DNA of 64,000 bases, taken from Candidatus Moraniibacteriota bacterium (GTDB taxonomy: Bacteria > Patescibacteriota > Minisyncoccia > Moranbacterales > UBA1568). The first letter of the stretch is position 1; each line of letters opens with the position of its first letter. Shown in pieces: positions 42,008 through 57,038 of this stretch. The notes below the pieces were generated by a model. That model saw nothing but the letters and a program-made list of their open reading frames with translations, made no database searches and was not told the origin of the DNA. The position numbers and the translations under genes were made by a program. The DNA lies in the NCBI GenBank assembly GCA_023261695.1, contig JAHFON010000002.1:11467-75466 (forward strand). The letters are read 5' to 3'.

Positions 42008-42078
42008 CGGGGTGTCGTATACCGGCAGTACGCATGCTTTGGGAGCATGTTGACTGGGTTCGATTCCCAGCACCCCGA
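42008..42078 (+). tRNA. tRNA-Pro (anticodon TGG)
   Basis: Hand-folded. Acceptor CGGGGTG/CACCCCG, anticodon stem CATGC/GCATG with loop TTTGGGA, T-arm CTGGGTTCGATTCCCAG. Confidence 0.7.
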
Positions 42079-42199
42079 CTAACAAAGACATTTTGAAAAA
42101 TTTATACCAATCCAAGCAACAGAAACATACTTAGTTTTTAAGTTGATATATGCTTTACGACGAATTCAATTTATATAAAAACTTTGCTAAAACAGCAAT

Positions 42200-43051
42200 A
42201 TGAAAAAAAATAAACCAAAAAATTTAGCGATTTTTGAAGGCAAAAGAGTGCGGCGGATTTGGGATGAGAAAAAGGAAATGTGGTATTTCTCTGTAGTGGA
42301 TATTGTGCAAGTTTTAACCGATCAGCCGAATTATCAATTAGCGAGAAATTATTGGAAAGTGCTAAAAAATCGCTTAAATAAAGAAGGGAGTGAAACGGTT
42401 ACAAAATGTAACCGGTTGAAAATGGAAGCAGAGGACGGAAAATTAAGAGAAACAGATACGGCTGATGTTGAAACATTATTACGCCTAATTCAATCTGTTC
42501 CCAGCCCAAAAGCCGAGCCGATTAAGTTATGGCTTGCCAAAGTCGGTTATGAAAGGATACAGGAAATAAATGATCCGGAAAAAGCACTCAATCGTAGCCG
42601 CGAATACTGGCAAAAAATGGGGCGAAGCGAGAAGTGGATTCAGCAAAGGATGATGGGGCAGGAGATACGGAATAAATTGACGGATTATTGGAAAAATAAT
42701 GAAGTTAAAGAGCAAAGTAAATACGCGATTTTGACGAATATAATCCATCAGGAATGGAGCGATATTTCAGTGAAAGAACATAAAAATTTGAAAAGCTTGA
42801 AAACGGAAAATCTGCGCGATCATATGACGGACGCGGAGCTGGTTTTTACGGCATTGGCGGAATTGTCCACGCGCCAAATCGCCGAAACAATGAAGGCAAA
42901 AGGTTTTGAAGAAAACAAGATTCCTGCCAAAAAAGGCGGAGCGGTTGCCAAGAATGCCAGACTGGAATTGGAGCAAAAGACCGGCAAAAAAATCGTGAGC
43001 GGCGGTAATTTCAAATCATTGCGAGAGCATAAGAAATTAAAAGGCAAATAG
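42200..43051 (+). CDS. DinD-like / Bro-N domain protein (DNA-damage-inducible protein D family)
   Basis: The N-terminal Bro-N-like region (KRVRRIWDEKKEMWYFSVVDIVQVL) and the C-terminal KNLKSL...TELVFTALAELSTRQIAE...KGG pattern resemble E. coli DinD. Confidence 0.5.
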   Translation: MKKNKPKNLAIFEGKRVRRIWDEKKEMWYFSVVDIVQVLTDQPNYQLARNYWKVLKNRLNKEGSETVTKCNRLKMEAEDGKLRETDTADVETLLRLIQSVPSPKAEPIKLWLAKVGYERIQEINDPEKALNRSREYWQKMGRSEKWIQQRMMGQEIRNKLTDYWKNNEVKEQSKYAILTNIIHQEWSDISVKEHKNLKSLKTENLRDHMTDAELVFTALAELSTRQIAETMKAKGFEENKIPAKKGGAVAKNARLELEQKTGKKIVSGGNFKSLREHKKLKGK

Positions 43052-43073: not shown

Positions 43074-43856
43074 TTGATGCGAAAACTCGAAAGGTGTTCG
43101 GGCGGGTTGTTGGTTGCCGTTTGCCTTGCTATAATGGGCTATATGAATACATATTCCGTCCGTTTGAAAAATAAATATGAGATAGCCGAGCGGACGCTCG
43201 CTTTTGTTTTTGAAAAACCTAAGGGGTTTCAATTTCAAGCCGGGCAATACACGGCTATGACTTTGCCTAAACTGGATTTCGCGGACGCGAAAGGGGCAAC
43301 GCGCGTTCTTTCCATCGCTTCCGCTCCGAGCGACGATGAACTGGTGTTTGGCGCGCGCATTACCGAAAGCGCGTTTAAAAAAACCTTGGCGCAAATGCCC
43401 GTGGGCGGAGAAGTGACGATTCACGAGGCGACGGGGCATTTTGTTTTACCGGAAGATCAAACGCGTGAGATTGTTTTTTTAGCTGGCGGTATCGGCATTA
43501 CTCCGGTGCGGAGTATTTTGCGGCAAGCCTTCGCAGAGAAACGAAACAATCCATTCGTTTTATTTTATTCCAATCGTCGTCCGGGAGACGCGTCATTTTG
43601 CCAAGAGATGCAAAATTTTTCCGGATTGAATTACCGGTGTATTGATACATTGACGCAGAATGAGGGTGTGTGCGACTGGCAGGAGGAATCCGGGTATATC
43701 TGCGCCGCTATGCTGAAAAAATATTTGAAGGAAATTCCGCACGCGCTTTATTATATTGTCGGCGCGACCGGTTTTATTCAAGCGATGGGAAAAATACTTG
43801 AAGAGCTTGGCGTGCCGGATACAAATATCAAGAAAGATCCGTTTACCGGATTATAG
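43074..43856 (+). CDS. FAD/NAD(P)-binding oxidoreductase (ferredoxin-NADP reductase-like fold)
   Basis: FAD_binding_6-like region (FQAGQYTAMTL...RVLSIASAP) and NAD-binding region (LAGGIGITPV). The start may be the internal Met around 43134. Confidence 0.55.
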   Translation: MMRKLERCSGGLLVAVCLAIMGYMNTYSVRLKNKYEIAERTLAFVFEKPKGFQFQAGQYTAMTLPKLDFADAKGATRVLSIASAPSDDELVFGARITESAFKKTLAQMPVGGEVTIHEATGHFVLPEDQTREIVFLAGGIGITPVRSILRQAFAEKRNNPFVLFYSNRRPGDASFCQEMQNFSGLNYRCIDTLTQNEGVCDWQEESGYICAAMLKKYLKEIPHALYYIVGATGFIQAMGKILEELGVPDTNIKKDPFTGL

Positions 43857-43859
43857 ATT

Positions 43860-43933
43860 GCGGGAGTAGCACAATGGTAGTGCACCTGCCTTCCAAGCAG
43901 GGTACGCGGGTTCGATTCCCGTCTCTCGCTCCA
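43860..43933 (+). tRNA. tRNA-Gly (anticodon TCC) with encoded CCA
   Basis: Hand-folded. Acceptor GCGGGAG/CTCTCGC (one G-T pair), anticodon stem CCTGC/GCAGG with loop CTTCCAA, T-arm CGGGTTCGATTCCCG, 3' TCCA. Confidence 0.8.
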
Positions 43934-43936
43934 TAA

Positions 43937-43973
43937 AAACACAGGAGTCCCGCTAAGGACTCCTGTGTTTTAT
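43937..43973 (+). terminator. rho-independent terminator after tRNA-Gly (aacacaggagtcc...ggactcctgtgtt + TTATT)
   Basis: A 13-bp perfect stem. Confidence 0.6.
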
Positions 43974-44245
43974 TGAGCTCAATTCTAAATTTTGCACGAA
44001 CCTACTACGAACGGGAAACTGACCTCGAAAGCGGAAGTTGTTTCGCTGCCGCTCGTCACCCAAAAGAAAAGTTTTGTTCGCTTTTTCTGATGGGCGCGCG
44101 CCCGAGTTTTCTTTCAAAAAGGAAAAGTCAGTTTTTCTGGACTGTTCTGCTCTTTGGAGCAGAGTGGCGTGGCCGTCTGCTTATTCCAGTATACCAGAAT
44201 ATCTAAAGTTTAGATATTTACTTTCCGTATATATGCTGATAGTAT

Positions 44246-44467
44246 ATGGACAAGACAATACAGACAAAAGAATACGCACGATTTATCGAGAAATTGCACA
44301 AAGCAAGGCTTGAGGCTAGTTTGAAACAGATCGAGGTTGCCAAGAAGCTCAAGCGTCCGCAATCCTATATTTCTCGCGTGGAATCCGGGGAGTATCGTCT
44401 TGATATTCTTGAGGTGAAGCGATTTGCAAAGATTTATGGAAAGAGCGTTGATTATTTTGTGAAGTAG
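44246..44467 (+). CDS. XRE-family helix-turn-helix transcriptional regulator
   Basis: HTH_3 pattern LKQIEVAKKLKRPQSYISRVESGE. 73 aa. Confidence 0.75.
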   Translation: MDKTIQTKEYARFIEKLHKARLEASLKQIEVAKKLKRPQSYISRVESGEYRLDILEVKRFAKIYGKSVDYFVK

Positions 44468-44468
44468 C

Positions 44469-45110
44469 ATGATTACAAAAGTCATCACAGATAAGGATGG
44501 TGAAAGATACATAGGTATCTGTAATCACTGCGGTAATAATACTTCTCAAAAAGTATTGTTTACACATATTGGGTCTGAAATCGCATATATACCAAATGGG
44601 GATGAAGTCAGTTTTGAAGTTGAATATCGACTCACAGAATGTGGGACTTGCGAAAATATATCGCTTTATGGAAAACCGGAATTTGATGATCATCTCTTCG
44701 GTCACGTGCTCTATCCACGACAAAGTAATTTATCAAGTTCTATCCCTGCAGAGATACGCAAAGTCTATGATGAAGCAAAATTAATATCAAAATTAGCCCC
44801 GAATGCCTTTGCAGTCCAGATTCGCCGCGCGCTGGAATTTCTTTGTAAGGATAAAAAAATAAGTGGGAAGAATTTAAGTGGACAACTAAAGGAGATGGCT
44901 AAACAGGGATTGATTCCACCTATCTTGGCAACGATGACTGATGGCATTCGTATCTTAGGTAATATTGGAGCACATGCCTCTAACATGGGGGTTAAATCAG
45001 AGGATATCTCTCTTATAGATGATTTTTTCAAAGCGATTTTAGAGTATGTTTATGTAGCCCCAAACAAGATAGAGGTTTTTAAGAAGCGTTTGGGCGAAAT
45101 AAAGAAGTAG
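44469..45110 (+). CDS. DUF4145-domain protein with N-terminal Cys4 zinc-ribbon-like region
   Basis: C-terminal IRRALEFLCKD...ILGNIGAHAS resembles DUF4145. N-terminal C..C(x~35)C..C. The start is 2 nt after the XRE stop codon. Confidence 0.5.
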   Translation: MITKVITDKDGERYIGICNHCGNNTSQKVLFTHIGSEIAYIPNGDEVSFEVEYRLTECGTCENISLYGKPEFDDHLFGHVLYPRQSNLSSSIPAEIRKVYDEAKLISKLAPNAFAVQIRRALEFLCKDKKISGKNLSGQLKEMAKQGLIPPILATMTDGIRILGNIGAHASNMGVKSEDISLIDDFFKAILEYVYVAPNKIEVFKKRLGEIKK

Positions 45111-45151
45111 TAGCAATTTTTTTATATCTCGTTTATTTTCCGAAAATAGCT

Positions 45152-45352
45152 ATGAGCGAACCATATACTTTCAAAAGTTTTCTCGGTCGGAATTGGTGGT
45201 TTCTTGTTATTGGGCTTTTTAGTGCCCTACGACAATCACAAAGAGAAAGTGTTTCAGGATCTATTGTGTTAGATGCGCTTTTTGGTGAGGGAATTATTTT
45301 GGTGATGATGTTTGCTTATTGGTTTGTTAGGTATGGCAGAAAATTAGAATAA
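45152..45352 (+). CDS. hypothetical small two-TM protein
   Basis: ORF with two hydrophobic helices. Confidence 0.3.
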   Translation: MSEPYTFKSFLGRNWWFLVIGLFSALRQSQRESVSGSIVLDALFGEGIILVMMFAYWFVRYGRKLE

Positions 45353-45356
45353 TTAT

Positions 45357-46019
45357 ATGGGGCTATTCAACTTTAACAGCTACAATCAGATTGAACAGGG
45401 ATTGTTAGACATATATTCTTTAATGTTGACAGCAAGTGGTATTGATAAAGAAGAGGCGAAAAAAATGATTGAGGATATGCTTAACACAGCTATCGAGCAA
45501 TCCAAAAAAGGGGGAAACTATTTTCTTCCTCAAAATTTAGGGAGCATTATTGTGGGGGAAGCCGAAACGGACGATCAGGGTATACAGAAATATACGCAAG
45601 CTCTTAGAGAAAGGATGCCCCAGAATGAGGGAATAAGCTTAGATGATATACGGATGTGGTGGAATTTGAATGATGTGGAGCGTCGTATGATACAAATGCA
45701 GGACATGGCTACGAAATCAACAGCGATGTTCGGATTTTTGAAATCAGGAATGGCTTCTAGCCCAGAGCAAGCAATTGCTATGGTTTGTAAAATTCATCCA
45801 GTCTACGGAAACCCGAATGACAATAGTCAGAGCAGTGGGGATGATCGGCCACTACCTTACGAGCTGAAAGATAGAATAAATATTTACATTCAAAAAAGGT
45901 CGGTCAAGGTTCGGAAGAGTACAAAAAAGAAATGGAGCAGTCATCCTCTTTCAATGCCTTGGTTCGAAAAGAAATTAGAAATGATAATTTATGATTGGTG
46001 GAAAAATAAACATTATTGA
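45357..46019 (+). CDS. hypothetical protein
   Basis: ORF track. 5-nt gap from the previous ORF. Confidence 0.4.
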   Translation: MGLFNFNSYNQIEQGLLDIYSLMLTASGIDKEEAKKMIEDMLNTAIEQSKKGGNYFLPQNLGSIIVGEAETDDQGIQKYTQALRERMPQNEGISLDDIRMWWNLNDVERRMIQMQDMATKSTAMFGFLKSGMASSPEQAIAMVCKIHPVYGNPNDNSQSSGDDRPLPYELKDRINIYIQKRSVKVRKSTKKKWSSHPLSMPWFEKKLEMIIYDWWKNKHY

Positions 46020-46135
46020 AGTACCTATTTGGATTATCGGCTGTGTTATTGCTTACAAAACAGACCTTTTTAAATTGGATGGGGCTTTTGGTATAGGAAA
46101 TAAAAAGGTATAACAACTCAAAATTTCAAAAATAT

Positions 46136-46858
46136 ATGAAAAAATGTCCATTTTGTGCAGAAGAAATTCAAGATAATGCTAAAAAATGCAGGTATTGTGG
46201 AGAATGGATTACAGCTCAATTGGGTAATAGTGATGATAAAGAAAAAACCAGTGACAGAGAAGTTAGGAAGTTAAATAAAGAATTCGTTTTTTGGAAAACT
46301 TTTGTGTGGTCAACGCTGGTTGTAGCGGTTATTTTTGTGATTCTGTTTGGATTTATTGGTGAACTTAAGAATGATACTACAGATGCATTACTTGGAATTT
46401 TAATTATTTCTGGGCTTATAGGGGTGTTAATTACTTTTATCATCAAGGGTCTTAGGGGTGGGAAAAAAGAGGATGGTCTCGAATTAACTACTGAAGAAAT
46501 TTCTAAATATAACGGACTTGCAGGCTGGCTTTTTTTGGTTGCACTTGGATTAGTTATAAGTTTTTTTAGAATTTCTTCAAATGTTTCTATGCTGAATGGT
46601 AGTATCGATAAGGTATTTAATGGGATTTTCGCAATATTTATTGCTTATGTTTTGTATCTATTCTTTGCTAAGAAAAAGAAGTTTAAGCCATTTTTTATTG
46701 CGTTTATTGTTATTAATTTATTATTTGCGACACTAGCTGTTATTACAGATAATAGTGGTGAAATAATGAAGGATTTTTTTGCATCAATAGTTTCTTTGAT
46801 GATCTGGATTCCATATATAATTAAATCAAAGCGAGTCAGGGCAACTTTTATAGAATAA
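46136..46858 (+). CDS. membrane protein with N-terminal zinc-ribbon (CPFC...CRYC) and four TM helices
   Basis: MKKCPFCAEEIQDNAKKCRYCGEW followed by hydrophobic helices. Confidence 0.5.
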   Translation: MKKCPFCAEEIQDNAKKCRYCGEWITAQLGNSDDKEKTSDREVRKLNKEFVFWKTFVWSTLVVAVIFVILFGFIGELKNDTTDALLGILIISGLIGVLITFIIKGLRGGKKEDGLELTTEEISKYNGLAGWLFLVALGLVISFFRISSNVSMLNGSIDKVFNGIFAIFIAYVLYLFFAKKKKFKPFFIAFIVINLLFATLAVITDNSGEIMKDFFASIVSLMIWIPYIIKSKRVRATFIE

Positions 46859-46888
46859 CTCGTTAGATTTTGAGGTAAAGTATTTATT

Positions 46889-47689
46889 ATGACAAATATA
46901 GCGCTAACGGCAGTAAAAAGGGTATTTAGAAATGCAGATGATGTGCAGAGCTTCTTCGATAATATGCTTAAAGCTACATTGACATATAAATTCAAAGAAC
47001 TAACCAAGGATAATCCCAAAGTATTGATAAATAGTAAAGATTTGACGGAGGCTATTTTTACGCTAACAGCCAAGGATAAAATTGAAATTTATAATCAGAC
47101 AATCAGCGGGTTAAGAATAAAGGAGCTTTTTATTGCAACAATTTATTTGAAGTATCTTGTATCCACTTTGAAAAAAGAGATTATTTTGGTAGCCTTTCCT
47201 TTTCAAGAAGAATACTACGATATTGCTTTCTTTGTTATAGAAGAAGCGACTTATGCTGTTTTGGGTAGTAAATTTCATATACCCGAAAATTCAACGGCTT
47301 ACTATATTCAAATCAAGGAGGATTTTGACTATGAAGAATACAAAAAATTCAATGAGTCAAATGAGCCTAAAAAATTTGATTCCCAAAAAATTAAAGATAC
47401 CGCTTCAAAATATACTGACGTCCTCGCTCTCTTTTTCAGCAGAAACTATGCCTTATTTGAATCAGGAAACATAACATCTTTTTTAGATAAGAACAGAAAT
47501 GTAGGAATTATTTTAATGCCGTCTTTGGCTAACCCAGAAATTGAATTAACAGGAGGAAAAGATAAGGGCAAAAAAATCCCACTGGATAAGGACAAATATA
47601 ACTTTCTATTGGAAACAGGGGGTAAAACTGTTCATATAAAATTCAGCGTTCCAAAATTTATGGAAAAAACTGATCCTCCTCAAAATTGA
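46889..47689 (+). CDS. hypothetical protein
   Basis: ORF track. Confidence 0.4.
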   Translation: MTNIALTAVKRVFRNADDVQSFFDNMLKATLTYKFKELTKDNPKVLINSKDLTEAIFTLTAKDKIEIYNQTISGLRIKELFIATIYLKYLVSTLKKEIILVAFPFQEEYYDIAFFVIEEATYAVLGSKFHIPENSTAYYIQIKEDFDYEEYKKFNESNEPKKFDSQKIKDTASKYTDVLALFFSRNYALFESGNITSFLDKNRNVGIILMPSLANPEIELTGGKDKGKKIPLDKDKYNFLLETGGKTVHIKFSVPKFMEKTDPPQN

Positions 47690-47822
47690 AAGCTCCGATT
47701 TTAACTATTGCCATATTTATGTTAAAATATGCATAAAGAAATAACCACTTGTTTGTGGCTGTATTTATTGACAAATCCATTGGATTTACATAAAATAAAA
47801 AACCAAACTTAATACAACTACT

Positions 47823-48308
47823 ATGTCTATTAAAAAAACAACCCATTCCGCGTTAGAAGTCGGCTTGTATTTTTTGTATTTAGCCAATCAGTCAGGAAAG
47901 AAAATTACCAATAAAAAAATGCAAAAGCTTGTTTATTATGCACAAGCTTGGTCTTTGGTTGTAAATAATAAGAAGCTTTTTGGGGATAAAATTGAAGCTT
48001 GGGTTCACGGTCCAGCTGTAAGAAGTTTATATGTCAAATATAAAGAATTTGGTTTCAATCCAATAATTAAGGAGATTGATCAACAAACAGCAGAAGTATT
48101 TTCAACAAAAGACAAAAAGCTTATAGATCAGGTATGGAGCTTGTATGGATCGCTGGACGCCGGATATCTTGAAATGCTTACTCACTCCGAAAGACCGTGG
48201 CAGGAAGCAAGAGAGGGACTTCAAAGTTCTGAAAGTTCAAGCAGCGAAATATCTACGAAGATAATGAAGGAGTTTTATTCCGAAAAGCTTCAAGAGGCTA
48301 AAAAGTAA
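47823..48308 (+). CDS. Panacea-domain (DUF4065, SocA/GepA-like) antitoxin-type protein
   Basis: MQKLVYYAQAWSLVVNNKKLFGDKIEAWVHGPAVRSLYVKYKEFG matches the DUF4065 consensus. Confidence 0.65.
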   Translation: MSIKKTTHSALEVGLYFLYLANQSGKKITNKKMQKLVYYAQAWSLVVNNKKLFGDKIEAWVHGPAVRSLYVKYKEFGFNPIIKEIDQQTAEVFSTKDKKLIDQVWSLYGSLDAGYLEMLTHSERPWQEAREGLQSSESSSSEISTKIMKEFYSEKLQEAKK

Positions 48309-48314
48309 AATTAT

Positions 48315-48755
48315 ATGGTAGATATACCTAATGAGGTAACTCAAATGCAAAATGACGGTGATATACCAAAGACTGTCGCAGAGTTACCACAAGATTCTGA
48401 TGTATCAGAAGTTGAACCCTATAAAATATCCTTTTCCAAATATAATAATAAGCTTTGCGAAATTTCTGAATTAGGAAAAAACAAGGGCAATAAGGCACTT
48501 ACCATTCTCAAAGAAATTGGAACAAAGGTATTTTCCAGGGCAGATTTCCAAAAACACAACATTCAAACAAAAGGAATTTCTTATGACGGAGCTTACAAGC
48601 CTCTTTATAGTAAGATTGCTGATGGCATAGAAATCAAGGAGCTTTTTTTACAAGGGACTGGTCGTATTTTTTATTTTGACATTGAACCGGAAAGAATGCT
48701 TTATATTGTTGCTATCAAGGAGAATCATTTTGAAACTGAAAAAGTAAGGCGATGA
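48315..48755 (+). CDS. putative RelE/HigB (Gp49-like) family toxin
   Basis: C-terminal QGTGRIFYFDIEPERMLYIVAIKENHFE resembles the HigB/Gp49 beta-strand core. Lies 6 nt downstream of the Panacea gene. Confidence 0.4.
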   Translation: MVDIPNEVTQMQNDGDIPKTVAELPQDSDVSEVEPYKISFSKYNNKLCEISELGKNKGNKALTILKEIGTKVFSRADFQKHNIQTKGISYDGAYKPLYSKIADGIEIKELFLQGTGRIFYFDIEPERMLYIVAIKENHFETEKVRR

Positions 48756-54018: not shown

Positions 54019-55248
54019 TTAACTTTTATCAGCAATGGCTTTTTGGATAATTTCGAGAGATTTTGAAAGTGTTTGTGTTCCAAGCGATCCGGTGTCGCGA
54101 TGTTCCATACTTACGCTTTGTGTTTCCACTTCTTTGTCTCCTATGACGAGCAAGTAGGGAATTTTTTGCGTCTTGCCGGAGCGCACACGTTTGCCAAGCG
54201 GTTCGTTGTCTGCGTTGAGTTCCGCGCGAATATTGTTTTCTTGGAACAGGTATGCGACTTTTTCCGCGAAGTTTCTGTGTTTTTCTCCGATCGGCAGTAC
54301 GATTACTTGGACAGGCGCAAGCCACACCGGAAAGCTACCTCCATAATGCTCAATGAGCACGCTCAAGAAGCGTTCTATGGAACCCATAATGGCGGCGTGG
54401 ATCATCACGATGCGTTCTTTTTCTCCTTTTTCGTTCACGCAAGTGAGATCAAAGCGCTCCGGCATATTCATATCCAGTTGGATAGTGGCCACTTGCCATT
54501 CCCGTCCGAGATTGTCTTTGGCCATAAAATCCAGTTTGGGTCCGTAAAAAGCCGCTTCACCGATTCCGTCAACGGTTTCTGCGCCCTTATCCCGCGTAAT
54601 CTCACGTAAGATATTTTCCGCGCTTTGCCAGCGCGCTTGATCGCCTAAAAATTTTTCCGGCTGTTTCGGATCGCGGAAAGACAAACGGATTTTCAAATGA
54701 AACCCGAATGTTTTATAAAAAGTTTCCACAATTTCCCAGATTTTCAGAAATTCTTCCTTCACTTCCGTTTCCCGACAAAAAACGTGAGCGTCGTCTTGGG
54801 TGAAAGCGCGCGTACGGGCCAGGCCATTTAATTCCCCGGTTTGTTCATCACGATAACACATCGTGGAATTGGCGTAGCGCTGGGGCAGTTCGCGATAACT
54901 CCATAATTTGCGCGCGTAAATCTGGGTATGATGGGGGCAATTCATCGGTTTTAGAGCAAATAGGTCTCCTTCACGCGTGGTAATTTTGAAAAGATCGTCT
55001 TGGAATTTATCCCAATGCCCGCTGGTTTCGTAAAGATCGCGCTTGGTGATGTGCGGAATTTCCACTTTTTGATAACCGTATTGTTTGCGCAATTGCCAAA
55101 CAAAATCGTCTAAAGTATCGCGCAAAAGGGTGCCTTTCGGAGTCCAGAGCGGCAAGCCGCTTCCCACCAGATCGGAAAATACGAAAAGGTCCAGTTCTCG
55201 TCCGAGTCGTTTGTGATCATTTATTTTTTCTTCCGCGGTGGTTGGCAT
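54019..55248 (-). CDS. thrS: threonyl-tRNA synthetase, catalytic + anticodon-binding core only (409 aa)
   Basis: Class II motif 2 (FRDEQTGELNGLARTRAFTQDDAHVFC) characteristic of ThrRS. Lacks the N-terminal TGS/editing region. Confidence 0.8.
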   Translation of the reverse strand: MPTTAEEKINDHKRLGRELDLFVFSDLVGSGLPLWTPKGTLLRDTLDDFVWQLRKQYGYQKVEIPHITKRDLYETSGHWDKFQDDLFKITTREGDLFALKPMNCPHHTQIYARKLWSYRELPQRYANSTMCYRDEQTGELNGLARTRAFTQDDAHVFCRETEVKEEFLKIWEIVETFYKTFGFHLKIRLSFRDPKQPEKFLGDQARWQSAENILREITRDKGAETVDGIGEAAFYGPKLDFMAKDNLGREWQVATIQLDMNMPERFDLTCVNEKGEKERIVMIHAAIMGSIERFLSVLIEHYGGSFPVWLAPVQVIVLPIGEKHRNFAEKVAYLFQENNIRAELNADNEPLGKRVRSGKTQKIPYLLVIGDKEVETQSVSMEHRDTGSLGTQTLSKSLEIIQKAIADKS

Positions 55249-55258
55249 AAGTAGAGAG

Positions 55259-56770
55259 TTACTTATTTTCTTCTATGGTTTGGATGGAAAAATTGAGGTC
55301 TTTGGTTAGCTCGGCGTTTTCTGTATATTCTTGATCTTTGGTTTTCAGGTGAACAGTTACTGGCAGACTGCCTACGCCGGATTGTTTTTGGATGAGCAGG
55401 CGATAATTCTCCGGCGTAATAGTGTCGGGAAGTTCATATTGGATGGAAGTTTCCAGCGTTTGTCCGATGACCGCGTCCACCTTGTAGCCGAAGACGGTTT
55501 TTTTCAACTCAGGAGAATCTTGGGTCAGAATGCCGCCGGTGTTTTTGCGGGTCTGCTCTATGTATTTTGCTCCTTGGGGAGCAAGAATACGGGTATAAGT
55601 GTGGTAATCACTGGTACGCCAATCGCCGTGCGTAGCCGTATGATTGTAAGTGTATGTGACGGTGGCTCTTGGTTTTTCGCCTGTGAAATCCACCAGATAA
55701 TCAAGCGAGCGCTTGATGTAATAATCAGTTTTCAGCGCTCCCAGATTAGCATCCACGAGCATCAGGTAGTCGCTTGGCCAGTCTTTGGCGACACCACCAT
55801 CCCAATGGACGCTTTCCGCAAGCGATTGGAGATTTTCATCCGGGAAGTAGAGCATTACGTTTTTATTGCGGAGCTCTTGCTGAACGAACTCGGCGATTTT
55901 CGGAATACTTTCTATATGATTGAGACGCTGGATGATTTCCGCCGCGATTTGTTTCATTAAGTTTTTGCGGTTCTGTTTGAGTTCGGCCGGCACATCTTTA
56001 TCATCAATAAATTTTTTTTCCACGGCTTCTTCCAGAAGCAGAGTGCCGTTTTCTCCGCTGAAAGTTCTGGTGTCAATTTTTTTTACATAAGCCCCGTCCA
56101 GGGTCTTCGTGAAGCTTTCCACGGAAACCGTGATCGGACCGGCGAGCTCCAGTATGTGATTGAAAACATCGGAATTGACCGCGATCACCCCGTCAAATTT
56201 TTCACGGCCTCCGCCGAGCCGGTAGAAATACTCGGCCTTTTCCGCGTTAAACGGAAAATCCGGGGAAAAATTGGAATCATGAAGCAACCAGCGTTTCGTT
56301 TGAGCGTAGCGGATGAGCGGCCAGGGCGGCGTAATTTTGATATTGGCGTTTTTGATGCGCTGATCCAGCAGGTTGGCGTCTTCCACGAAGGATGAAATCA
56401 CCGCCCCATTTTTGATTTTGATGATGGCATATTGACCCAAGAAACCGCCACCGGGACGAAGCTCGTGATCGTTTTGGAGAAGTATCATAAAGGAGCGAAT
56501 TTTGTCGTCCTGTTTTGTGAATTCTTGGACCAGCGTGTTGGTTATCTCAATTTCCTTTTTGGTATCCGGAGCCAGCGGGAGCAGTTTGGAAACTTTTTGA
56601 AAAAGATTTAAAGAGTTTACGGCAAACTCTGTTTTGTGATTTTTGGCATAGAAGAAAAGATAGACTCCGCCTGCGATGATTATCGCGATAACAGAAAAAG
56701 CAATAAGCCGGTTTTTAGCAGGCAATTGATACATAAAGAAAGTGAAACAGATGAAAAAATTGTAAGCCAC
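55259..56770 (-). CDS. DUF4012-like membrane-anchored protein
   Basis: N-terminal TM and the conserved RPGGGFLGQY segment recalled from DUF4012. Confidence 0.45.
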   Translation of the reverse strand: MAYNFFICFTFFMYQLPAKNRLIAFSVIAIIIAGGVYLFFYAKNHKTEFAVNSLNLFQKVSKLLPLAPDTKKEIEITNTLVQEFTKQDDKIRSFMILLQNDHELRPGGGFLGQYAIIKIKNGAVISSFVEDANLLDQRIKNANIKITPPWPLIRYAQTKRWLLHDSNFSPDFPFNAEKAEYFYRLGGGREKFDGVIAVNSDVFNHILELAGPITVSVESFTKTLDGAYVKKIDTRTFSGENGTLLLEEAVEKKFIDDKDVPAELKQNRKNLMKQIAAEIIQRLNHIESIPKIAEFVQQELRNKNVMLYFPDENLQSLAESVHWDGGVAKDWPSDYLMLVDANLGALKTDYYIKRSLDYLVDFTGEKPRATVTYTYNHTATHGDWRTSDYHTYTRILAPQGAKYIEQTRKNTGGILTQDSPELKKTVFGYKVDAVIGQTLETSIQYELPDTITPENYRLLIQKQSGVGSLPVTVHLKTKDQEYTENAELTKDLNFSIQTIEENK

Positions 56771-56894
56771 TCCAGTGTATCAGGATCGGAGAGGTTTGAA
56801 AAGTAAAGCAGTCCGCGTTACAATAACTCTATCGGGTTCTTTATCTGTGGAATACGCGTGACAAATGAGCTTTTTGTCACGTTAAAAATATTAT

Positions 56895-56965
56895 GCGAGT
56901 GTAGTACAATGGTAGTACACGACCTTCCCAAGGTTGAGACAGGGGTCCGATTCCCCTTACTCGCT
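56895..56965 (+). tRNA. tRNA-Gly (anticodon CCC)
   Basis: Hand-folded. Acceptor GCGAGTG/TACTCGC (G-T), D-arm GTAC..GTAC, anticodon stem CGACC/GGTTG with loop TTCCCAA, T-arm AGGGGTCCGATTCCCCT. Confidence 0.65.
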
Positions 56966-57038
56966 CAAAGATTTAGGGTGCGACCTAGATGAAAAAAGAT
57001 TTTGAAAATTAAATAATAAGCTGTTAAAATCAGGTTTT

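What the first reader, a model, noticed from the sequence alone, without database searches (positions are those of the whole stretch)
44246..45110. Translationally coupled XRE regulator + zinc-ribbon/DUF4145 protein pair
The 73-aa HTH_3 protein's stop codon sits 2 nt before the start of a 213-aa protein whose C-terminus resembles DUF4145, a helical domain repeatedly fused to restriction and abortive-infection components. Its N-terminus has a Cys4 arrangement. Upstream (44150-44245) are inverted repeats (ctaaagtttag; tatatatgctgatagtatat) suitable as the XRE operator. This architecture of autoregulated HTH followed by effector matches toxin-antitoxin and Abi modules. The specific zinc-ribbon-DUF4145 combination is not a described system to my knowledge.
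Basis: partly seen in the sequence, partly recalled or inferred. Interest (0 to 1): 0.6.

Follow-up and report, generated by a model that had tools for sequence, protein, structure and literature searches.

The report
RAZR-type defence RNase behind conserved XRE
The 213-aa protein is a distant relative of RAZR (PD-T7-4), a characterised anti-phage RNase. The small XRE regulator in front of it is not a dedicated partner: related candidate-phylum bacteria have the same XRE gene ahead of dozens of unrelated genes.

Summary
A 73-aa HTH_3 gene (44246-44467) is followed after 1 nt by a 213-aa gene (44469-45110) with four invariant cysteines and a C-terminal DUF4145 domain. A perfect 10-N-10 palindrome lies upstream.

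The pair is not a conserved module. None of the independent RAZR-family loci examined has this XRE gene. None of about 85 XRE loci examined has a RAZR gene directly downstream.

The XRE gene and its operator are 70-97% conserved, in contigs that are named Moranbacteria wherever a name is given. They are followed, usually within about 25 nt, by at least 50 unrelated gene families, including PD-Lambda-1. XRE is therefore best read as an autoregulator heading a variable slot, and RAZR as one horizontally acquired (low-GC) occupant. A toxin-antitoxin reading is unlikely.

The parts
43860..43933 (+). tRNA-Gly(tcc), immediately upstream of the XRE block. This is context: several other XRE loci also sit within 400 nt downstream of a same-strand tRNA gene.
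   Evidence: ARAGORN; Rfam tRNA 71 bits; tRNAs of various identities upstream of XRE in L042/43, L050, L063, L089, L095, L109
43936..43971 (.). Perfect 15-nt-arm hairpin flanked by A and T runs. It is probably the terminator of the tRNA gene and isolates the XRE promoter from upstream transcription.
   Evidence: the repeat finder I1, 100% complementary, 6-nt loop
44198..44218 (.). Candidate XRE operator: perfect 10-N-10 palindrome AATATCTAAA g TTTAGATATT. Its last two bases overlap the -35-like hexamer.
   Evidence: conserved in 53/58 non-redundant XRE loci at 26-30 nt from the ATG, and unique in the window
44217..44245 (+). Conserved sigma-70-like promoter: TTTACT (TTGACT in most relatives), 17 nt, TAGTAT. 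It ends at the base before the ATG, which implies a leaderless or near-leaderless XRE mRNA (inference).
   Evidence: Conservation across 52/58 loci. The generic scan did not call it. Codons 2-16 show coding periodicity, so the ATG at 44246 is the start.
44246..44467 (+). 73-aa XRE-family HTH protein consisting of a DNA-binding domain only. It is highly conserved, in contigs named Moranbacteria or other Patescibacteria wherever a name is given.
   Evidence: Pfam HTH_3 E 5.8e-11; 514 homologues, the top 120 at 75-97% identity; alignment A2 mean column identity 87%; closest solved structures 3eus, 3f6w, 2ef8
44469..45110 (+). 213-aa RAZR / PD-T7-4 homologue (zinc-ribbon sensor domain plus DUF4145/HEPN RNase domain)
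   Evidence: PADLOC PD-T7-4 E 6.8e-17, profile positions 16-189 of 211; PDB 9y9c E 7.3e-5 for the single sequence and 1.6e-9 for the profile; phrog_1305 E 1e-26
44469..44714 (+). N-terminal beta-rich zinc-ribbon domain (residues 1-82). Cys codons are at 44520-22, 44529-31, 44640-42 and 44649-51 (C18, C21, C58, C61).
   Evidence: Invariant Cys4; AF2 strands over residues 4-82 with high pLDDT; sequence read directly
44748..45104 (+). C-terminal helical DUF4145/HEPN domain (residues 94-212). Predicted catalytic R161 (44949-44951) and H169 (44973-44975) lie in the motif R-ILGNIGA-H.
44468..48755 (+). Low-GC variable island headed by XRE. It holds RAZR, a 66-aa ORF, a 220-aa ORF, a zinc-ribbon/DUF2569 membrane protein (46136-46858), a 266-aa ORF, and a SocA/Panacea antitoxin (47823-48308) with a 146-aa partner (48315-48755).
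   Evidence: Island genes 31-39% GC against 44-45% for the window; Pfam. The DUF2569 gene directly follows XRE in L043 and follows one inserted gene in L051.

Best explanation
The 213-aa gene encodes a RAZR-type (PD-T7-4) abortive-infection effector. By homology, it should sit in the cell as inactive oligomers. Its N-terminal Cys4 zinc-ribbon domain should bind a ring-shaped phage protein, such as a portal. Assembly around that ring should then position the HEPN (DUF4145) domains so that R161 and H169 form active RNase sites. These would cut tRNA, rRNA and mRNA and stop translation in the infected cell.

The 73-aa XRE protein is not part of that mechanism. It is a DNA-binding-only repressor conserved across its lineage. 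It most likely binds the 21-bp palindrome next to its own promoter (negative autoregulation). Through a 1-nt stop-start junction, it passes transcription and translation on to whatever gene lies downstream.

In related CPR contigs (named Moranbacteria wherever a name is given), that downstream position is a variable slot filled by at least 50 unrelated gene families. Here it is filled by a low-GC, horizontally acquired island that begins with RAZR.

Shown: the homology, the conserved catalytic and zinc-binding residues, the fold, operator conservation, and non-conservation of the pair. Inferred: RNase activity, the phage trigger, XRE binding and co-transcription.
For: RAZR membership:
- PADLOC PD-T7-4 E 6.8e-17 across both domains.
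- The RAZR chain of PDB 9y9c is the best solved-structure hit for the single sequence and the only hit for the profile.
- C18, C21, C58, C61, R161 and H169 are invariant in 32 homologues.
- The R and H align with the R...H motif of the RAZR chain, which the paper numbers R146/H154 and shows to be essential.

RAZR needs no partner:
- It is a single-gene system and is not toxic when overproduced.
- No XRE gene in any independent RAZR-family locus: 35 genome-collection loci, 10 contigs of the closest relatives (48-76% identity), two plasmids and one phage.

XRE as a general head-of-slot regulator:
- 514 homologues, the top 120 at 75-97% identity.
- DNA conservation is confined to window 44190-44467.
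- Palindrome and promoter are conserved at fixed spacing.
- 80 downstream genes fall into 50 families, mostly 11 nt of overlap to 25 nt of spacer from the XRE stop.
- These include PD-Lambda-1 (E 5e-151) and PDC-S31.
- Related contig pairs share the XRE block, and four of the five a downstream flank as well, but differ in between.
- Island GC is 31-39% against 44-45%.
Against: - Similarity to E. coli RAZR is distant: the pairwise E-value is only 7e-5, and the printed alignment covers residues 52-190 and not the first CxxC.
- 9y9c did not appear among the top structural hits.
- Nothing is known about phages of this host or whether their ring proteins would trigger the enzyme.
- XRE binding to the palindrome is untested.
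- The best promoter match ends directly at the ATG, which is unusual geometry. CPR promoters are uncharacterised.
- A regulatory link specific to RAZR cannot be excluded from one locus.
Confidence: 0.7

Rival explanations
1. Type II toxin-antitoxin or two-gene abortive-infection module. XRE is an antitoxin that neutralises the HEPN toxin by protein-protein contact and represses the operon, and loss of XRE during infection frees the toxin.
For: The gene order (small HTH first, effector second), the 1-nt coupling and the palindromic operator resemble many type II modules. HEPN domains are toxins in HEPN-MNT systems. There is a weak NCBIfam hit to Y4mF/HipB-type antitoxins, E 0.0034, far below cut-off.
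Against: - RAZR is not toxic when overproduced and functions alone.
- The pair occurs nowhere else.
- The same XRE precedes 50 unrelated families, many of which appear to be membrane or secreted proteins.
- XRE is 73 aa, with the HTH domain covering residues 17-71, so there is no separate neutralisation domain.
- XRE (75-97% conserved) and its partners have completely different evolutionary patterns.
Confidence: 0.07
2. Dedicated inducible defence. XRE is a CapH- or BrxR-like sensor-repressor that keeps RAZR off until a phage or damage signal removes it. The pair would then be a regulated variant of RAZR.
For: PADLOC hits of XRE to capH (E 4.6e-7), to R-M control proteins (E 6e-4) and to HTH models of defence systems. 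Operator plus coupling.
Against: - The hits are generic HTH similarity.
- No CapP-type protease is adjacent here, and XRE has no ligand or sensor domain.
- The identical regulator and operator precede apparent surface proteins, peptidases and other non-defence genes, so any signal is not RAZR-specific.
- RAZR is already gated after translation by its trigger.
Confidence: 0.12
3. The 213-aa protein is not an RNase effector. It would be a nucleic-acid-binding or phage-derived structural or accessory protein that merely shares the DUF4145 fold.
For: PHROG 1305 is labelled 'DNA binding protein'. The only phage homologue lies in a tail-gene region of Virgibacillus phage Mimir87 as a longer protein. 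About 20% of DUF4145 domains lack the catalytic motif.
Against: R161 and H169 with the GN spacer are invariant here and across the family. The full-length match is to the experimentally validated PD-T7-4 model. PHROG labels are not experimental.
Confidence: 0.05

Closest known systems
RAZR (ring-activated zinc-finger RNase) = PD-T7-4 of E. coli UMB1727; PDB 9y9c; PMC13017515, PMC9519451
   Same: Same two-domain architecture and similar size (213 aa against 219 aa). N-terminal Cys4 zinc ribbon, a linker, and a C-terminal DUF4145/divergent HEPN domain. The R-x7-H catalytic pair aligns. The match to the PD-T7-4 HMM spans both domains.
   Different: Only distant identity, roughly a quarter to a third of residues over the aligned part. 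The host is a CPR bacterium, not an enterobacterium. It is expressed from an XRE-headed operon. [quoted passage not shown] Trigger and activity are untested.
HEPN-family toxins (HepT/HEPN-MNT, e.g. 5yep, 7ae2)
   Different: No MNT antitoxin gene. R-x7-H spacing instead of the canonical R-x4-6-H. An extra zinc-ribbon sensor domain. 6-11% sequence identity.
Controller (C) proteins of restriction-modification systems and similar small autoregulatory XRE proteins
   Same: A small HTH_3-only protein with a palindromic operator at its own promoter. It is encoded first and tightly coupled to a potentially harmful effector gene. Weak PADLOC 'Control_protein' hits (E 6e-4).
   Different: No restriction or methylase genes. 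The same regulator precedes at least 50 unrelated genes. The score is far too weak for family membership.
Core-gene-anchored defence or variable hotspots, and integron cassette arrays
   Same: A conserved anchor with a promoter, followed by exchangeable and sometimes stacked genes that include validated defence genes. Short repeats of the anchor's 3' end separate stacked genes.
   Different: No integrase, no attC-like sites and no identified recombinase. The repeats are of uneven length (40-102 nt). The cargo looks mostly like membrane or secreted proteins, not defence genes.

Membership tests
RAZR / PD-T7-4 | Significant full-length match to the PD-T7-4 profile or the RAZR sequence | tested here: met
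   PADLOC PDLC04109 E 6.8e-17, protein residues 18-202 against profile positions 16-189 of 211. PDB 9y9c E 7.3e-5 for the single sequence and 1.6e-9 for the profile.
RAZR / PD-T7-4 | N-terminal Cys4 zinc-ribbon domain (the trigger sensor) | tested here: met
   C18, C21, C58 and C61 are invariant in 32 homologues. The AF2 model has a beta-rich N-domain over residues 4-82. The second CxxC aligns with CSHC of RAZR. Metal binding itself was not tested.
RAZR / PD-T7-4 | C-terminal DUF4145 / divergent HEPN domain with catalytic Arg and His (R146/H154 in RAZR) | tested here: met
RAZR / PD-T7-4 | Functions as a single gene with no obligate partner | tested here: met
   No RAZR-family locus outside this genome carries the XRE gene. 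This shows that the family does not need XRE. It does not show that this copy works alone.
RAZR / PD-T7-4 | Higher-order oligomers; activation by ring-shaped phage proteins; ssRNA cleavage; abortive-infection phenotype | not testable with these tools
   Needs biochemistry, cryo-EM and phage assays, as described for E. coli RAZR.
HEPN superfamily (Pfam clan CL0291) | Helical HEPN fold with an R...H motif | tested here: met
   DUF4145 is assigned to this clan by Anantharaman et al. 2013. Structural hits. The motif spacing is R-x7-H, not the canonical R-x4-6-H, as in RAZR.
Type II toxin-antitoxin pair (XRE antitoxin + toxin) | The two genes co-occur and co-vary across genomes | tested here: not met
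   No further co-occurrence among about 47 RAZR-family loci and about 85 XRE loci. 50 alternative partner families.
Type II toxin-antitoxin pair (XRE antitoxin + toxin) | The toxin is harmful when expressed without the antitoxin | not testable with these tools
   The homologue RAZR is non-toxic when overproduced in E. coli. This copy is untested.
CapH/CapP-type defence regulator | XRE repressor paired with a CapP metallopeptidase that cleaves it | tested here: not met
   The capH hit is E 4.6e-7 over the HTH only. No peptidase gene is adjacent in the window.
R-M controller (C) protein | Small HTH autoregulator with C-box operators controlling a restriction endonuclease gene | tested here: not met
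   A palindromic operator is present. There are no R-M genes in 44-49 kb. The 'Control_protein' hits are only E 6e-4 and 2.5e-3. It may work like one but is not a member.
Integron | IntI tyrosine recombinase, attI site and attC-flanked cassettes | tested here: not met
   No recombinase was seen next to XRE in the window or among the called genes of the loci inspected. The repeats are XRE 3'-end fragments of 40-102 nt, not attC sites.

The most novel reading that the evidence does not exclude
The roughly 280-bp operator-promoter-XRE block is the fixed head of a gene-exchange slot in Moranbacteria-type CPR bacteria.

New genes arrive at, or about 40 nt before, the XRE stop codon and are expressed by coupling to XRE. 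Older occupants are pushed downstream, each still carrying a fragment of the XRE 3' end. This would be an integron-like expression and capture platform with no recognisable integrase. It would use the unusually conserved XRE gene as the recombination anchor, and it would hold both defence genes (RAZR, PD-Lambda-1, PDC-S31) and variable genes that look like surface proteins.

Evidence so far:
- 50 downstream gene families at spacings of mostly 11 nt of overlap to 25 nt of spacer.
- XRE 3' remnants after the first downstream gene in L043-45, L051, L068 and L122.
- Swaps between conserved flanks in L080/L081 (a single gene), L056/L065, L091/L112 and L119/L121.
- The XRE block is 86% identical between L042 and L043, while the neighbouring housekeeping genes are 66-69% identical.
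Probability: 0.35. Interest if true: 0.65.

Novelty: new member of a known kind. Interest (0 to 1): 0.4.

Why it matters
For the finding as given, the effector is explained. It extends the RAZR family into the episymbiotic candidate phyla radiation, whose phage defences are barely studied, and it shows the catalytic and zinc-binding residues conserved at about 40% identity across many bacterial phyla and some archaea. That is a modest gain.

The pairing with XRE should not be catalogued as a new two-gene defence system. More useful is what the XRE side revealed: one highly conserved small regulator with a fixed operator precedes dozens of unrelated, rapidly exchanged genes in related genomes. 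If this is a real capture-and-expression site, it could serve as a guide to accessory and defence genes in CPR genomes, and as an example of gene-cassette turnover without an integron integrase.

Tried and rejected
- Looked for the XRE gene next to RAZR homologues in 29 genome-collection loci, by phmmer and ORF listing, and next to seven closest relatives at 48-76% identity. Found none. A tblastn over all 137 loci held gave the same answer.
- Looked for an HTH partner in annotated records: an Enterobacter plasmid, a Calothrix plasmid and Virgibacillus phage Mimir87. Found none.
- Searched viral contigs for the XRE gene and for close RAZR relatives. Found nothing, so there is no support for a phage origin of the XRE block.
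- Searched the window for a repeat of the tRNA-Gly 3' end or of the XRE 3' end that would mark island boundaries. Nothing was above chance, and only a doubtful resemblance lies upstream of 46136.
- Ran Rfam on 43800-45200. Only the tRNA was found, and no RNA gene lies between the tRNA and XRE.
- The generic promoter scan did not call the conserved promoter.
- The DUF4145 protein 2 kb downstream of XRE in L046-49 is not RAZR-type: 25% identity in the HEPN part only.
- The right-hand flanks of the slot are not a common gene.
- The AFDB Foldseek library was unavailable.

Full report
**Observation**

The first runs 44246-44467 (+) and encodes 73 aa. It matches Pfam HTH_3 (E 5.8e-11, residues 17-71) and HTH_31. 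Its TAG stop ends at 44467, one base follows, and the ATG of the second ORF is at 44469.

The second ORF runs 44469-45110 and encodes 213 aa. It matches Pfam DUF4145 at E 4.8e-18 over residues 102-187. The 'ctaaagtttag' repeat is the centre of a perfect 10-N-10 palindrome at 44198-44218.

**What the 213-aa protein is**

The PADLOC library gives a single hit, PD-T7-4. The E-value is 6.8e-17 and the match covers residues 18-202 against profile positions 16-189 of 211, so both domains are included.

PD-T7-4 was found by functional selection in E. coli (PMC9519451). It has since been renamed RAZR, for ring-activated zinc-finger RNase (PMC13017515). That paper describes:
- an N-terminal Cys4 zinc-ribbon domain and a C-terminal DUF4145 domain that is a divergent HEPN RNase;
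- catalytic R146 and H154;
- an abortive-infection phenotype;
- activation by assembly of 24 RAZR protomers around ring-shaped phage proteins (SECphi27 Gp77, or the portals of T7, T3 and SECphi18);
- cleavage of single-stranded RNA, with tRNA, rRNA and mRNA all affected.

The RAZR chain of the cryo-EM entry 9y9c is the best hit among solved structures for the single sequence (E 7.3e-5). It is the only hit for a profile of 32 homologues (E 1.6e-9). 'GIRILGNIGAH' of the window protein aligns with 'ICRIVGNQAVH' of RAZR.

DUF4145 was placed in the HEPN superfamily in 2013, and a fusion to a zinc ribbon was already listed there. The statement that this combination is not a described system therefore no longer holds.

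**Is the XRE gene a partner of RAZR?**

From the RAZR side:
- The 29 genome-collection loci that hold a complete RAZR-family gene come from many bacterial phyla and from archaea, including two other CPR lineages. None has a relative of the XRE gene nearby.
- The seven closest relatives (76, 66, 63, 61, 60, 51 and 48% identity) are preceded by unrelated genes. One sits beside a DpnII restriction-modification pair.
- Annotated homologues on an Enterobacter plasmid, on a Calothrix plasmid and in a Virgibacillus phage also lack an HTH neighbour.
- RAZR itself acts alone and is not toxic when overproduced.

From the XRE side the picture is the reverse:
- The 73-aa protein has 514 homologues. The best 120 are 75-97% identical, and where a source gives a name it is mostly Candidatus Moranbacteria or another Patescibacteria group.
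- In 88 further loci (8 from exact look-ups, 80 from a metagenome scan), DNA similarity to the window is confined to about 44190-44467. It reaches back to about 44084 in the closest relatives, and in most loci it ends at or within about 50 nt before the XRE stop codon.
- The gene that follows differs from locus to locus. The 80 downstream proteins fall into 50 unrelated families, and the junction is mostly between 11 nt of overlap and 25 nt of spacer.
- Only the window's own genome has RAZR there.
- The cargo includes an M48 peptidase, a trypsin-like secreted protease, bestrophin-like, RDD, DUF805 and DUF2569 membrane proteins, and many proteins with no hit whose N-termini look like signal peptides or membrane helices.
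- It also includes PD-Lambda-1 (E 5e-151) and the candidate system PDC-S31.

The pair in the window is therefore a single occurrence and not a conserved module.

**What the XRE gene most likely does**

The protein is a bare DNA-binding domain. Upstream, 53 of 58 non-redundant loci keep the palindrome (ATATCYRRA-N-TTTAGATAT), and 38 keep it as a perfect palindrome. It always lies 26-30 nt before the ATG. It is followed by TTGACT or TTTACT, then 17 nt, then TAGTAT, which ends at the start codon.

Codons 2-16 show third-position variation, so the ATG at 44246 is the real start. The simplest reading is a self-repressing promoter that produces a leaderless or near-leaderless message. The downstream gene would then be translated by coupling. 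This part is inferred. It resembles the logic of controller proteins of restriction-modification systems, but the family test fails: there are no R-M genes and the scores are weak.

**Context**

The XRE gene lies 312 nt downstream of tRNA-Gly(tcc), which is followed by a strong hairpin. Everything from 44468 to 48755 has 31-39% GC, against 44-45% for the window. That stretch also contains a zinc-ribbon/DUF2569 membrane protein and a SocA/Panacea antitoxin with a 146-aa partner.

The DUF2569 gene follows XRE directly in L043. In L051 it follows one inserted gene plus a fragment of the XRE 3' end. Relative to those contigs, the window therefore carries RAZR plus two small ORFs (44468 to about 46130) inserted at the head of the slot.

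**The variable slot**

Three observations suggest active exchange at this position:
1. Fragments of the XRE 3' end (40-102 nt) lie directly after the first cargo gene and about 20 nt before the next gene's ATG. This is seen in L043-45, L051, L068 and L122.
2. Pairs of related contigs share the XRE block and a downstream flank but differ in between. L080/L081 differ by a single gene. In L091/L112 the break falls 40 nt before the XRE stop.
3. Between L042 and L043 the XRE block is 86% identical, while the flanking ThrRS and DUF4012 genes are 66-69% identical.

No recombinase was seen beside these loci, and the window itself has no such remnant. Homologous recombination through the conserved XRE gene would be enough to explain the pattern. 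An integron-like capture mechanism is possible but not shown.

**Verdict**

The effector is a new, distant member of a known and mechanistically characterised family. The XRE gene is a lineage-wide head-of-slot regulator and not a toxin-antitoxin partner. The XRE-headed variable slot is the only part of this region that may be new.

Noticed in passing
window 44190-44467; loci L042-L129: The operator-promoter-XRE block is conserved in 88 further loci held here (named Moranbacteria or other Patescibacteria where a name is given). It is followed by 50 unrelated gene families at tight spacing. XRE 3'-end fragments (40-102 nt) separate stacked genes in L043-45, L051, L068 and L122. Gene swaps between conserved flanks are seen in L080/L081, L056/L065, L091/L112 and L119/L121.
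   Followed up: partly
L074:3737-5005 and L075 (same gene); L109:3743-4378: Two other genes directly downstream of the same XRE are defence genes: PD-Lambda-1 (DUF4041 + T5orf172, E 5e-151) and the PADLOC candidate PDC-S31 (E 3e-36).
   Followed up: yes
window 47823-48308 and 48315-48755: A SocA/Panacea-domain antitoxin (Pfam E 2.7e-22; NCBIfam SocA E 7e-19, below cut-off) is followed 6 nt later by a 146-aa ORF with no family hit. This is probably a Panacea toxin-antitoxin pair with an unclassified toxin. A Panacea homologue also lies in XRE-led locus L078 (4657-5112).
   Followed up: no
window 42200-43051: A Bro-N domain protein (283 aa) matches the PADLOC candidate defence model PDC-S13 at E 8.5e-122 and phrog_15286 at E 2e-92. 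It lies just after tRNA-Pro(tgg) (42008-42079).
   Followed up: no
window 46136-46858: A membrane protein with an N-terminal zinc ribbon and a DUF2569 domain. Its homologues are the first gene after XRE in L043-45 and the second in L051, so it is a recurring occupant of the slot.
   Followed up: partly
window 44217-44248: The conserved -35/-10-like pair ends at the base before the XRE start codon, although codons 2-16 are clearly coding. The promoter geometry or the transcript 5' end is unusual (leaderless?).
   Followed up: partly
L056, L058, L059, L065, L070, L095, L097, L100, L106, L119, L121, L122, L124: about 60-90 nt upstream of XRE: A GC-rich, hairpin-like motif ('cccgcccgtgcgcgggcaac') recurs upstream of the XRE operator in many loci but not in the window. 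Its nature is unknown.
   Followed up: no
window 43860-43933; L042, L043, L050, L063, L089, L095, L109: In about 8 of 50 loci checked, the XRE block lies within 400 nt downstream of a same-strand tRNA gene of varying identity (Gly-tcc, Gly-ccc, Ser, Ala, Gln). A rough estimate for small genomes would put chance at about 2%. No tRNA-derived direct repeat was found in the window.
   Followed up: partly
window 54019-56966 compared with L042/L043: In L042 and L043 the XRE block follows ThrRS, DUF4012 and tRNA-Gly(ccc). The window has that same gene group at 54-57 kb but no XRE after it. Its XRE follows tRNA-Gly(tcc) instead, so the block's position differs between related genomes.
   Followed up: no
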